Position numbers: made by a program. DNA of 38,884 nt, taken from the IMG/VR virus record IMGVR_UViG_2728369182_000009; one strand, written 5' to 3'. Shown piece by piece: positions 14,901-17,900 of the stretch; the first letter of the stretch is position 1, and each line of letters starts with the position of its first letter. Source of the DNA: a virus. Its lineage: Duplodnaviria; Heunggongvirae; Uroviricota; Caudoviricetes.

Positions 14901-17900
14901 AATCTCGATGAAGACGAGTGGGGTGCACGCGGTGTGGCCTACTGTAAATCTAAGCGAGCTATACATGAAAATCCCCTCCGCGCCGCCATGATTGTCTTTC
15001 TCATGATGCAGAGAATCCAATAATGCTTAGCCCATCCCAATCCCTTCAATACCAGAAAGAAAGCGTCGAGCGAGCTTTAACGTGCGCTAACTGCGGTCAG
15101 AAGCTGCATGTGCTGGAAGTTCACGTGTGTGAGCGTTGTATATATGAATGCTTAAATATGGTGGAACATAATGAGAAATATAAGCAACATAGACGAATTA
15201 AGAAATAAATTATCATATGATGATGTTTTAGGTGTACTTAGATGGAAAGTGTCTCCTTCTAATAATGTTAAGGTTGGCAGTGTTGCTGGTTACATTAGGA
15301 GTGATGGTTATAGGATGTTAACTATCGATGGTGTAATTACTTATGCTCACCACGTTATATGGATGATAAATAATGGTGAGATTCCATTAGGGTATAAAAT
15401 TGATCATATAAATGGAGTAAGGTCAGATAATAGGCTATCTAATCTTCGATTGGTTACACACCAACAGAATGCACAGAACCAAAAGAGAAAAATAACCAAT
15501 TCGTCAGGAGTGACTGGAGTATATTTCAATAAAGAGAGATGTAAGTGGATTGCGAATATATGCGTAGATGGGCGCACCAAATATCTTGGAATATTTGCTA
15601 GCATCATTGACGCTATTGCAGAAAGGAAGAGGGCAGAAAAAGAACTGGGTTTTCATGAAAACCATGGCAGACCATAACTGCGCAGAACTGATGAGCGATC
15701 CGAATAGCTCGATGCACGAGGAAGAAGACGATGAGTGATTACCTGAAATGGTATCTCTGCCACCGCTGGTTAATTAAGTTTGCTGTAAAAGACTGGATGA
15801 CAGCGGATGCCAACAAGCTTAAGCAAAGAAAGGACTATTACTACGCCAGAATGAAGGAAAACTACTGCTCAATTCGCACTCGCATATTTATTAAAAAAGA
15901 CCTTCAGTCAATTCTTCAATTGCGAGGGAAGGTAAATGGCTAACCTACGCAAAGAAGCGCGCGGCAGAGAATGCCAGGTACGTATTTACGGCGTATGCAA
16001 TGGTAATCCTGAAACTACAGTTCTGGCACATTACCGGATGGCTGGAATTTGCGGAACGGGAATGAAGCCTGACGACCTGATCGGCGCATGGGCTTGTAGC
16101 GCGTGTCACGATGAAATCGACCGACGCACCCATAATCTCGACAACAAAGACGCCAGACTTTACCACCTCGAAGGCGTGATCAGGACGCAGGCGATACTGC
16201 TGAAGGAGGGAAAGATTAAGCCATGAACGAATATCAGTTTGTGCTTCCATACCCGCCGTCGGTGAATACCTACTGGCGAAGACGAGGAAGCCAATACTAC
16301 ATCAGCGATAAAGGCCAGAAATACCGAAAAGACGTTCAGCAAATCATCCGCCAACTTAAGTTAGACATTTTCACCAAATCACGACTCCGCATCAAAGTAA
16401 TCGCAGACGTTCCAGACTCCCGCCGCCGCGACCTCGATAACATCCTGAAAGGTTTACTCGACTCCCTTATCCACGCCGGATTTGCGGAAGACGACGAGCA
16501 ATTCGATGACATTCGCGTAATTCGTGGTGTGAAAGTACCAGGCGGACGGCTTGGAATAAAAATAACCGAACTGGAGAACGTATGAACGCCACAATTCAAA
16601 CGATACCAGAGCTTCTTATCCAGACACGAGGCAATCAGACCGAAGTGGCGAGGATGCTTTCCTGCGCAAGAGGAACAGTGCTCAAGTACAACCGAGACAG
16701 CAAAGGTGAGCGTCACGTAATAGTTAACGGCGTCCTGATGGTCAAACAAGGCAAGAGGGGAAGACGATGAGCATAAGAGAACTAAACCTCACCAAAGAGC
16801 AGCACGAGTGGCTGAATGGCTGGCTTGAACTGTGGGGCGCATGGGTTTATTCAGGTCGTCTGGAAAAGCGCATGAGCAGCGTAATAGCGAAGTTCATGGA
16901 GAGCGTAGAGCCGGGAAGAGTTATGACAAGGCCAATGTGTAATGATGATGATGGAATGTTGATTTCTCAGGTCGTCGATTCCGTCATGTGCATTGACAAG
17001 AAAGCCTTTGGAATCCTCCTCAGCTACTACGCTCATGGTTCATCTAAGCGAGCAATTGCATCCTACTATCACGCGACTGCAAAGCCACGCAAGATGTGTG
17101 GACGTGGTGGCGAGGGATGGAGAAAGCCTTCACTGGCAACCTGTAGAAACGAAATTGACGACATCCTGAAAGCGTCGTTATTTGTTTTGTACCAACCAAT
17201 GCAAAATGCTTTCAAAATGCGTAAACGTGTTGAGAAAGTTAAGCATGTTGCTGTTAAAAGCCTTGACATGCAATTAGCCATTTAGCCATAATATTCACAT
17301 ATGCTGCTGCTTTTGCATTCAGCAACCATCACAAGCCCACCTCCTGTGGGCTTTTTTGCATTCGCGTGCAATCAAAACAAGAGTCTTAGTGATATGGGCC
17401 TGAGATATGGTGGTGGAAACATCGCTCCGCTCTTGGCTGTCATATCTACGCGAACAGGCTCTATCCCTAAGGTAAAGCGATGAAAGAAATAAAATTAACG
17501 CCAGAAATGGTGCTTTCTGTTGTTGATTACAATCCATCATCAGGCGACTTTCACTGGAGATGGAGGCAGGGGAGAGAGAGGACCACTTTGACATGGAACT
17601 CTCGTTTTGCTTTCAAGAAATGCTCATCAATAAATTCTGATGGGTATTTAATGATTATGATTAATGGTAAAGCATACCCTGCTCACAGACTGGCATGGTT
17701 GATTGTTTATGGCACCATGCCCGATGGTTTTATTGATCACATCAACAGGGTAAGAACAGATAACCGGATATCAAATCTTCGTCTTGTCACTCATTCCGAA
17801 AATATGCAAAACAGGAAAATTCAGAAGAATAATAAATCTGGATACCGTGGCGTGTCTTGGGATGCTAAGTACGGGAAATGGAGAGCAAGAATTAATGCGT

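What the first reader, a model, noticed from the sequence alone, without database searches (positions are those of the whole stretch)
15023..15738. HNH homing endonuclease cassette inserted inside a ninF-like gene, leaving a displaced 3' remnant
The ninF-like ORF reads normally for 39 codons (to ...HVCERC), then runs into an AT-rich 539-bp segment containing an HNH-AP2 endonuclease gene with its own RBS. Immediately after the endonuclease stop, a start-less frame encodes CAELMSDPNSSMHEEEDDE and ends with the ATGA overlap into the next gene, which looks like the original ninF C-terminus. The insert is not a multiple of 3 and is too short for a group I intron, so this looks like a free-standing homing-endonuclease insertion that truncates ninF.
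Basis: partly seen in the sequence, partly recalled or inferred. Interest (0 to 1): 0.6.

Follow-up and report, generated by a model that had tools for sequence, protein, structure and literature searches.

The report
Homing endonuclease gene splitting phage ninF
A small selfish DNA element, a gene for an HNH DNA-cutting enzyme, sits inside the dispensable phage gene ninF in a minority of E. coli prophages; this is an ordinary kind of mobile element in a slightly unusual position, inside a coding sequence with no intron or intein around it.

Summary
Removing window 15140-15678 (539 bp, 35% GC against 47% in the flanks) restores a 177-bp, 58-aa ninF. That gene matches phage family phrog_672 end to end and matches uninterrupted ninF in a 99%-identical phage (vB_EcoP-720R6). 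The insert encodes an intact 168-aa HNH endonuclease. Its predicted fold is closest to I-HmuI, with an AP2-like DNA-binding domain at the C-terminus. There is no ribozyme and no in-frame intein.

The same insert, at least 98.3% identical, occurs in 45 of 5426 complete E. coli genomes and 29 IMG/VR contigs. In every copy where both ends could be read it sits in ninF with identical junctions, on at least 15 different flank haplotypes. An 85%-identical copy in a divergent ninF shares the left junction, and dN/dS between the two copies is 0.07. The 10 nt to the left of the insert form a haplotype private to carriers, while empty alleles are hypervariable exactly there.

The best reading is a free-standing homing endonuclease gene that truncates NinF after its second CxxC. 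One refinement: the cassette's right end, and possibly its ribosome-binding site and ATG, look derived from a variant ninF tail. This hints at earlier illegitimate joins. Cleavage activity and homing are inferred, not shown. It is a new member of a known kind, of modest interest.

The parts
15023..15139 (+). ninF 5' part: codons 1-39, including both CxxC knuckles (CANC, CERC) of the NinF zinc-ribbon-like core
   Evidence: Pfam NinF PF05810 E = 6.4e-12. Collinear with uninterrupted ninF of 720R6 and of E. coli prophages.
15130..15139 (+). 10-nt haplotype TGAGCGTTGT private to insert-bearing alleles (Arg codon CGT and TGT next to the junction)
   Evidence: Fixed in 32/32 HNH+ alleles. G at -5 occurs in 0/123 empty alleles. 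pi = 0 in carriers against 0.29 in empties.
15023..15208 (+). Chimeric truncated ninF' ORF (61 aa): 39 native codons plus 22 insert-encoded codons, overlapping the HNH start by 38 nt
   Evidence: ORF list. Matches phrog_672 only over 1-44/58.
15140..15678 (+). 539-bp presence/absence insert (the homing endonuclease cassette), 35% GC
   Evidence: Absent from 720R6 at the same site, with 99% identical flanks. Present at >=98.3% identity in 45/5426 E. coli genomes and 29 IMG/VR contigs.
15140..15170 (+). 31-nt leader with the SD-like GGTGGA (15160-15165). Possibly a decayed copy of a ninF 3' end plus the ATGA start overlap.
   Evidence: Direct reading. Similarity to the ninF-v 3' end: 15/1000 shuffles for the window copy and 0/1000 for the L155 copy. 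Comparable scores occur elsewhere in 607 kb of background, so this is only suggestive.
15171..15677 (+). HNH endonuclease gene (168 aa): N-terminal beta region, HNH motif (D78 H79 ... N91 ... N100/N103), C-terminal AP2-like domain
   Evidence: Pfam HNH_3 E = 1.2e-19. phrog_99 E = 3.4e-70. AF2 pLDDT 90.6. Foldseek: I-HmuI 1u3e at E = 6e-4 and AP2 domains at prob 1.0. dN/dS 0.07 against L155.
15664..15678 (+). Last 15 nt of the insert (ATGGCAGACCATAAC), resembling codons 44-48 (MADPN) of a variant ninF allele. It supplies the HNH stop codon in another frame.
   Evidence: 14/15 match to ninF-v, 4/2000 shuffles. In L155 the homologous position continues into 45 nt of ninF-v-like tail, 38/45 identical.
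15679..15738 (+). Stranded ninF 3' remnant: codons 40-58 plus the stop, with no start codon of its own at the junction
   Evidence: Identical or nearly identical to the 3' end of uninterrupted ninF.
15731..15943 (+). Downstream nin-region gene (70 aa, unknown function), whose ATG overlaps the ninF stop (ATGAGTGA)
   Evidence: ORF list. Annotated as a hypothetical protein in 720R6 and PigCaeca_1.

Best explanation
Window 15140-15678 is a free-standing homing endonuclease gene (HEG) cassette lodged inside ninF, a small non-essential gene of a P22-like/lambdoid prophage.

Shown:
- It is a precise 539-bp presence/absence polymorphism.
- It encodes an intact HNH enzyme under purifying selection, with an I-HmuI-like fold and an AP2-like DNA-binding domain.
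- It has no intron or intein around it.
- It truncates NinF after its second CxxC and strands the last 19 codons.
- It occurs with identical junctions on many different ninF and neighbouring-gene backgrounds.

Inferred mechanism:
1. The gene is transcribed with the nin operon during lytic growth and translated from its own SD-like site.
2. When an insert-free lambdoid genome is in the same cell, the enzyme nicks or cuts its ninF around codons 39-44.
3. Repair from the insert-bearing copy transfers the cassette together with the adjacent ~10 nt.
4. The carrier is immune because its own site is split and altered.

Also inferred: the lineage probably began as an HEG sitting directly after a variant ninF, and reached its present place through illegitimate, microhomology-mediated joins. 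These left scraps of ninF tail at the right end of the cassette and possibly at its left end.
For: Empty site:
- 720R6 carries uninterrupted ninF with 99.3% identical flanks (462 bp against 1001 bp).
- Over 2.7 kb, the window and 720R6 differ at 8 points plus the 10-nt patch. Three of those points and the patch lie within about 100 nt of the insert.
- The healed gene is a full-length NinF.

Enzyme:
- HNH_3 E = 1.2e-19; catalytic D-H...N...N columns are invariant or nearly so in 60 homologs.
- AF2 pLDDT 90.6. Top PDB fold match is I-HmuI; the C-terminal domain superposes on AP2 domains. 18/60 homologs hit Pfam AP2.

Selection:
- dN/dS = 0.07 against the 81%-nt-identical copy L155.
- All 22 complete IMG/VR copies checked have an intact ORF. 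Among the remaining contigs, one carries a frameshift and a further contig an IS1 insertion; one E. coli copy carries an IS3.

Spread:
- Found in 45/5426 E. coli genomes, all inside ninF annotation.
- Junctions are identical in every copy where they could be read: the left in 32 loci, both in 29.
- At least 15 flank haplotypes and at least 7 downstream contexts.
- pi is 0.0048 in the insert, against 0.040 (left) and 0.018 (right) in its own flanks.
- The 10-nt private haplotype is 32/32 in carriers and 0/123 in empties.
- L155 has the same left junction in a divergent ninF.

No intron or intein: Rfam gives nothing at E <= 10, and the frames differ.

History: the right end matches ninF-v 14/15. 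The L155 remnant matches ninF-v 38/45. A different HNH gene sits directly after intact ninF in phage Louie.
Against: - No cleavage or homing was measured, and the target site is only guessed from junction positions.
- Identical junctions fit a single ancestral insertion. Spread across backgrounds could in principle come from ordinary homologous recombination among mosaic lambdoid phages rather than from endonuclease-driven conversion.
- E2348/69 carries both a filled and an empty ninF, so invasion is not happening in the lysogen. This is expected if the nin operon is repressed, but that is untested.
- The insert is absent from all 50,697 isolated phage records, although 216 of them carry ninF.
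- The similarity of the leader to a ninF 3' end is short, and scores as high occur elsewhere in 607 kb of phage DNA.
- 'HG-R' is a common end in this HNH family, so part of the right-end match may be native HNH sequence.
- The divergent copy L155 is a single 909-bp contig.
Confidence: 0.8

Rival explanations
1. Passive passenger. The HNH gene was inserted once by illegitimate recombination and has since spread only vertically and by the general homologous recombination that shuffles lambdoid prophages. The enzyme no longer homes, or has another role, for example in competition between phages.
For: Junctions are identical in every copy where they could be read, consistent with a single origin. 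ninF flanks are similar enough for ordinary recombination. Filled and empty ninF coexist in E2348/69. The insert is rare, in about 2.7% of ninF-bearing E. coli genomes.
Against: There is strong purifying selection on the ORF (dN/dS 0.07). Insert diversity is 4-8 times lower than that of its immediate flanks, across at least 15 haplotypes. Differences from a near-isogenic empty phage cluster at the insert. The same site is used in a divergent ninF.
Confidence: 0.14
2. Genes in pieces. ninF stays functional as two polypeptides, the C-terminal piece being translated from an in-frame start inside the HNH 3' end. The ORF 15568-15738 is an example; PGAP annotates shorter versions of it as 'protein NinF'.
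For: The remnant frame is open back to 15568, with in-frame ATGs at 15568, 15655 and 15664. PGAP calls such ORFs NinF in J6, E2348/69 and Eco_70239. The remnant sequence is preserved in all E. coli-type copies.
Against: No convincing SD precedes any of these ATGs. In L155 the remnant is shorter and the HNH ORF reads through it in another frame. Preservation is expected anyway from the young age of the insertion (pi 0.005), and because the segment carries the RBS and start of the next gene.
Confidence: 0.04
3. A self-splicing intron (group I or II), an intein or a translational bypass element restores full-length NinF.
For: Only the general precedent that HNH genes in phage coding sequences are often carried by introns.
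Against: No Rfam match at E <= 10 across 14500-16300 on both strands. Only 31 + 1 nt of the insert lie outside the HNH ORF, too little for a ribozyme core. The HNH frame differs from both ninF frames and there is no Hint domain. Folding of the junction region is unremarkable, z = -0.58.
Confidence: 0.01

Closest known systems
Free-standing phage homing endonucleases that split a gene, e.g. mobE in Aeromonas phage Aeh1 nrdA (Friedrich et al. 2007, cited in PMC10448857; reviewed in PMC2988022)
   Same: An endonuclease gene with its own translation signals is inserted directly into a coding sequence, with no intron or intein. It is a presence/absence polymorphism between related phages.
   Different: In Aeh1 both halves are expressed and reassemble into an essential enzyme. 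Here the target is a small dispensable gene, the 3' piece has no start, and the result looks like a truncation. The enzyme family also differs, and the host is a temperate lambdoid/P22-like prophage, not a T4-like lytic phage.
HNH-AP2 homing endonuclease family (Magnani et al. 2004, as cited in PMC10448857, which also defines 'IPA-HNH' HEGs in ICP1-like phages)
   Same: An N-terminal HNH_3 nuclease plus a C-terminal AP2-type DNA-binding domain in a ~170-aa phage protein.
   Different: The AP2 domain of this protein is sub-threshold by sequence. Its closest relatives outside the ninF lineage are at most 56% identical, so this is a separate, isolated lineage tied to a single target gene.
I-HmuI (PDB 1U3E), the intron-encoded HNH nicking endonuclease of Bacillus phage SPO1
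   Same: It is the best structural match (Foldseek E = 6e-4, prob 1.0) and shares the DH...N...N motif.
   Different: Identity is 22%. I-HmuI lies in a group I intron and uses a different C-terminal DNA-binding module. Whether the ninF enzyme nicks or makes a double-strand cut is unknown.
The other free-standing HNH genes of the lambdoid nin/Q region: the HNH directly after ninF in phage Louie, and the HNH-AP2 gene between pR' and tR' in phage HK629 (also in this window at 17480-17992)
   Same: All are small HNH genes present or absent between otherwise similar lambdoid phages in the same few kilobases.
   Different: Those sit between genes. The ninF element sits inside a gene. Louie's HNH is a different subfamily, 30% identical over the motif only. 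HNH2 is 49% identical over 99 aa.

Membership tests
Free-standing homing endonuclease gene (HEG) | Encodes a member of a recognised homing-endonuclease nuclease family with an intact catalytic motif | tested here: met
   HNH_3 E = 1.2e-19. D78/H79/N91/N103 are conserved in 60 homologs. I-HmuI is the top fold match.
Free-standing homing endonuclease gene (HEG) | Precise presence/absence polymorphism at one site among otherwise similar genomes | tested here: met
   Empty site in 720R6 with 99% identical flanks. Junctions are identical wherever readable: left in 32 loci, both in 29. 123-140 empty alleles sampled.
Free-standing homing endonuclease gene (HEG) | Not embedded in a self-splicing intron or an intein | tested here: met
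   No Rfam hit at E <= 10. Only 32 nt are non-coding. The HNH frame differs from both ninF frames.
Free-standing homing endonuclease gene (HEG) | The enzyme cleaves the insert-free allele at or near the insertion site | not testable with these tools
   Needs a biochemical assay. Only indirect hints exist: right-hand remnants begin at codon 40 (E. coli type) and codon 44 (L155).
Free-standing homing endonuclease gene (HEG) | Super-Mendelian spread with co-conversion of flanking markers | tested here: inconclusive
   The population pattern fits: a 10-nt private haplotype, pi of the insert 4-8 times lower than its flanks, at least 15 haplotypes, and differences clustered at the insert. General recombination is not excluded.
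HNH-AP2 endonucleases | C-terminal AP2 DNA-binding domain | tested here: inconclusive
   Pfam AP2 E = 0.008-0.024, below the gathering score. However, 18/60 homologs hit AP2 at E <= 0.001, and the model superposes on AP2 domains (7et5 rmsd 1.8 A over 53 columns, 1gcc TMt 0.66, prob 1.0).
Group I / group II intron with an encoded endonuclease | Ribozyme core flanking or surrounding the ORF | tested here: not met
   No Rfam family at E <= 10. 507 of the 539 nt are ORF. There is no significant local structure.
Intein | In-frame insertion with Hint splicing domains | tested here: not met
   The insert length is not a multiple of 3. The HNH ORF is in a different frame. Pfam finds only HNH_3.
Genes-in-pieces split gene | Both fragments have their own translation starts and are expressed | tested here: not met
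   The 3' remnant begins without a start codon. In-frame upstream ATGs lack an SD. Expression itself was not tested.
NinF (PF05810 / phrog_672) | About 58-aa protein with two CxxC knuckles and an acidic tail | tested here: met
   This applies to the reconstructed gene only: phrog_672 1-58/58 at E = 1.4e-36. The gene as it stands covers 1-44/58.

The most novel reading that the evidence does not exclude
Codons 37-44 of ninF are a long-running battleground between this endonuclease lineage and lambdoid phages.

- The 10-nt patch just left of the insertion point is about ten times more diverse in empty alleles than the surrounding gene. It may consist of cleavage-resistant variants, or of footprints of repeated invasion and loss.
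- The nested scraps of ninF tail at the cassette ends may record successive invasions completed by microhomology joins rather than by clean homologous repair.

If so, this would be a natural record of how a free-standing endonuclease moves from beside its target gene to inside it.
Probability: 0.25. Interest if true: 0.5.

Novelty: new member of a known kind. Interest (0 to 1): 0.3.

Why it matters
It adds a clean, well-sampled natural example of a free-standing homing endonuclease that interrupts a coding sequence in temperate phages. Filled and empty alleles are both common in sequenced E. coli, including the well-studied strain E2348/69, so crosses and cleavage assays would be easy to set up.

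It also explains a recurrent annotation oddity in RefSeq: two 'NinF' fragments, and an HNH gene flagged as partial although it is intact.

It does not reveal a new mechanism. NinF has no known function, so the biological consequence for the phage is probably small.

Tried and rejected
- Group I/II intron: rejected, because Rfam at E <= 10 found nothing and the leader region has no significant fold.
- Intein: rejected on reading frames and domains.
- Assembly artefact: rejected, because the same structure is in 45 complete genomes.
- HNH as a pseudogene, as PGAP flags it in J6 and E2348/69: rejected, because the ORF is intact and the protein identical there.
- Defence-system membership: PADLOC returns only generic 'homing endonuclease' models. 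NCBIfam returns nothing.
- Search for further divergent copies with a degenerate left-junction pattern in genome contigs and metagenome contigs. Only L249 was real.
- An exact-pattern scan of genome contigs found nothing.
- Searching IMG/VR with the divergent protein P0002 returned only the E. coli-type copies.
- The alternative boundary model (a 542-bp insert starting at 15135 plus a 3-nt TGC deletion) was considered. It was set aside as less simple, because the 539-bp model restores a full 58-codon gene.
- Literature searches for ninF together with HNH or homing endonuclease found no description of this insertion.
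Full report
**1. Observation**

- An ORF at 15023-15208 starts like NinF (Pfam PF05810, E = 6.4e-12). After 39 codons (...HVCERC) it runs into AT-rich sequence and ends with the tail IYECLNMVEHNEKYKQHRRIKK.
- A 168-aa ORF at 15171-15677 is preceded by GGTGGA, 5 nt upstream of its ATG.
- Directly after its TAA, a start-less frame encodes CAELMSDPNSSMHEEEDDE. Its stop overlaps the ATG of the next gene (ATGAGTGA).

The segment 15140-15678 is 539 bp and 35% GC, against 47-49% on either side. 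Joining 15139 to 15679 gives a 177-bp, 58-codon gene. That gene matches the phage family phrog_672 over its whole length (1-58/58, E = 1.4e-36), whereas the interrupted ORF covers only 1-44/58.

**2. Empty site**

A megablast of 14900-15900 against isolated phages found no record covering the insert. It did find Escherichia phage vB_EcoP-720R6, which matches both flanks at 99.3% across 462 bp instead of 1001 bp.
- The annotation there shows NinX, a 177-bp NinF, a hypothetical protein, YbcO, RusA, NinH and Q. This is the gene order of the window.
- The alignment places the gap exactly between codons 39 and 40.
- Over about 2.7 kb around the site, the two genomes differ at 14819, 15044, the 10 nt preceding the insert, 15711, 15715, 16445, 16564 and 17267. 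Differences are therefore concentrated next to the insert, as expected for a local conversion tract.

**3. The encoded protein**

- Pfam gives HNH_3 (E = 1.2e-19) and PHROGs gives phrog_99 'HNH endonuclease' (E = 3.4e-70).
- AP2 is only sub-threshold by sequence (E = 0.008-0.024).
- In an alignment of 60 homologs, the D-H...N...N positions are invariant or nearly so. 18 of the 60 hit Pfam AP2 at E <= 0.001.
- An AlphaFold model built on that alignment is confident (pLDDT 90.6).
- Foldseek against the PDB ranks the HNH homing endonuclease I-HmuI first (E = 6e-4, prob 1.0). It then finds AP2 DNA-binding domains for the C-terminal third: TEM1 at rmsd 1.8 A over 53 columns, and AtERF1 at TMt 0.66.

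**4. Not an intron or an intein**

- Rfam at E up to 10 finds nothing on either strand of 14500-16300.
- Only 31 nt before the ORF and 1 nt after it are non-coding.
- The HNH frame differs from both ninF frames.
- The junction region folds no better than shuffles (z = -0.58).
- No terminator stands out inside the insert.

**5. Distribution**

- The 539 bp occur in 45 of 5426 complete E. coli genomes, 44 of them full length and all at least 98.3% identical. All lie under 'NinF' annotations on chromosomes.
- About 1686 genomes carry ninF at all.
- None of 50,697 isolated phage records has the insert, even in a distant search, although 216 carry ninF.
- 29 IMG/VR contigs carry it.
- In every copy where the ends could be read, the junctions are the same: GAGCGTTGT|ATATAT on the left and CATAAC|TG(C/T)GCAGAA on the right.
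- The ORF is intact in all 22 complete IMG/VR copies examined. Elsewhere one copy has a frameshift (L026), one an IS1 (L373) and one E. coli copy an IS3.
- PGAP marks the HNH as a partial pseudogene in J6 and E2348/69, but the ORF there is intact and the protein identical. PGAP also calls an ORF overlapping the HNH 3' end 'NinF'. Both are annotation artefacts.

**6. Population signature**

- The 29 copies with both flanks fall into at least 15 haplotypes over 83 + 55 nt, and have at least 7 different downstream sequences.
- Nucleotide diversity is 0.0048 in the insert, against 0.040 in its left flank (-83..-11) and 0.018 in its right flank.
- The last 10 nt before the insert are monomorphic in carriers (TGAGCGTTGT) and private to them. 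G at -5 is found in 32/32 carriers and 0/123 empties.
- In empties the same 10 nt are hypervariable (pi = 0.29, against 0.027 in the adjacent, unbiased -28..-11). The main versions are CEHC and CSDC, with several rarer ones.
- Polymorphisms at -67, +33 and +37 occur in both carriers and empties, so exchange has taken place within tens of nucleotides of the insert.
- E2348/69 has a filled ninF in one prophage and an empty one in another.

**7. An older relative**

- The large protein database holds one 90% cluster of this protein (369 members) and one relative at 85% identity (P0002). Everything else is at most 56% identical.
- P0002 lies on a 909-bp contig, L155. There a divergent ninF (...IHVCEKC) is interrupted at the same point (TGT|ATATATG). 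The HNH gene is 81% identical in DNA and is followed directly by YbcO.
- dN/dS between the two HNH genes is 0.07, with dS about 1.2. The enzyme has therefore been kept functional over a long association with this site.

**8. Fine structure of the ends (inference)**

*Right end.*
- In L155 the HNH ORF runs straight into 45 nt that match, 38/45 without gaps, the tail of a variant ninF allele. I call this allele ninF-v (CAELMADPNGQMLEEDDE). It is found uninterrupted in L383, L393 and L417.
- The homologous last 15 nt of the window's insert (ATGGCAGACCATAAC) match ninF-v codons 44-48 at 14/15, with 4 of 2000 shuffles doing as well.
- The HNH stop codon therefore lies in sequence that looks ninF-derived, read in another frame.

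*Left end.*
- The leader before the HNH ATG resembles the ninF-v 3' end, including the ATGAG start overlap. Shuffles reach the score 0/1000 times for L155 and 15/1000 for the window.

*Caveats.*
- Scores this high also occur at several unrelated places in 607 kb of phage DNA, so the left-end argument rests only on position.
- 'HG-R' is a common ending in this HNH family, so ATGGCAGA may be a microhomology rather than captured sequence.

*Reading.*
- The HEG once sat immediately after a ninF gene. A different HNH does exactly this in phage Louie and in L016.
- It was then moved inside ninF by breaks near codons 39-44 that were repaired illegitimately.
- The E. coli-type copy keeps a 10-15-nt scrap of the earlier host allele, followed by the recipient's codons 40-58.

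**9. Mechanism**

*Shown:* structure, polymorphism, enzyme family, selection and distribution.

*Inferred from established knowledge of free-standing phage HEGs (PMC2988022, PMC10448857):*
- The gene is expressed with the nin operon in lytic growth.
- The enzyme cuts or nicks empty ninF near the insertion point.
- Recombinational repair copies the cassette and the adjacent few nucleotides.
- The carrier is immune because the site is split and altered.

NinF keeps both CxxC knuckles but loses its acidic tail. Whether NinF' still works is unknown.

**10. Comparison and novelty**

- The closest known kind is a free-standing HEG that splits a gene (mobE in Aeh1 nrdA). Here, however, the 3' piece has no start and the target gene is dispensable.
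- The enzyme belongs to the HNH-AP2 group described by Magnani et al. 2004 (as cited in PMC10448857).
- I found no paper describing this insertion.
- It is a new member of a known kind, and a specialist would not be surprised.
- The mildly interesting extras are the hypervariable patch at the target and the nested ninF scraps.

**11. Dead ends**

Two collection scans with an AT-rich degenerate pattern gave almost only chance hits. An IMG/VR search with P0002 found no further divergent copies.

Noticed in passing
window 17286-18046 (ORF 17480-17992): A second HNH-AP2 endonuclease gene: Pfam HNH_3 plus AP2 at E = 1.6e-8, and 49% identical over 99 aa to the ninF one. It lies in a ~700-bp insertion between the end of Q (with the pR'-like promoter) and the terminator before tRNA-Asn, relative to J6 and 720R6. 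The same segment is 99.9% identical in phage HK629 and is present in 39 of 5426 E. coli genomes. This phage therefore carries two related free-standing HEGs 2 kb apart.
   Followed up: partly
window 17263-17292 and 17333-17353: A near-consensus sigma-70 promoter (TTGACA-18-CATAAT) overlaps the end of Q, followed by a strong terminator hairpin. This looks like the late promoter pR' and its terminator. The second HEG sits behind this terminator, so it would be expressed only after Q antitermination.
   Followed up: no
window 15130-15139 and the same position in loci L035-L154, L380-L418: In uninterrupted ninF, the two residues inside the second CxxC and the neighbouring Cys codons form a hypervariable patch (pi 0.29; versions CEHC, CSDC, CEYC, CDHC, CEAC, CADC). 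The first CxxC (CANC) is essentially invariant. The patch abuts the HEG insertion point.
   Followed up: partly
L419 (phage Louie) 2170-2679; also right flank of L016: A different HNH endonuclease gene (30% identity over the motif only) sits directly after intact ninF, with its ATG overlapping the ninF stop. In L016 it follows the interrupted ninF. The ninF neighbourhood thus hosts at least three distinct HNH genes.
   Followed up: partly
L003 (E2348/69) 1759-2185; L005 (J6) 1614-2181; L379: RefSeq/PGAP annotates the intact HNH ORF as a partial pseudogene. It also calls a 50-51-aa ORF that overlaps the HNH 3' end 'protein NinF'. Both are artefacts of the split gene.
   Followed up: yes
L379 (E. 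coli Eco_70239) 1263-2491; L373 1-115; L026: Secondary decay of the cassette: an IS3-family element and an IS1 end inserted into the HNH gene in two prophages, and a 1-nt frameshift in a third.
   Followed up: partly
L383, L393, L417: A variant ninF allele with a different, one-codon-shorter tail (CAELMADPNGQMLEEDDE) occurs on otherwise ordinary ninF 5' halves. ninF itself is therefore mosaic at about codon 43.
   Followed up: partly
window 18047-18202: tRNA-Asn (GTT) and tRNA-Thr (TGT) genes lie downstream of Q, as in J6 and 720R6.
   Followed up: no
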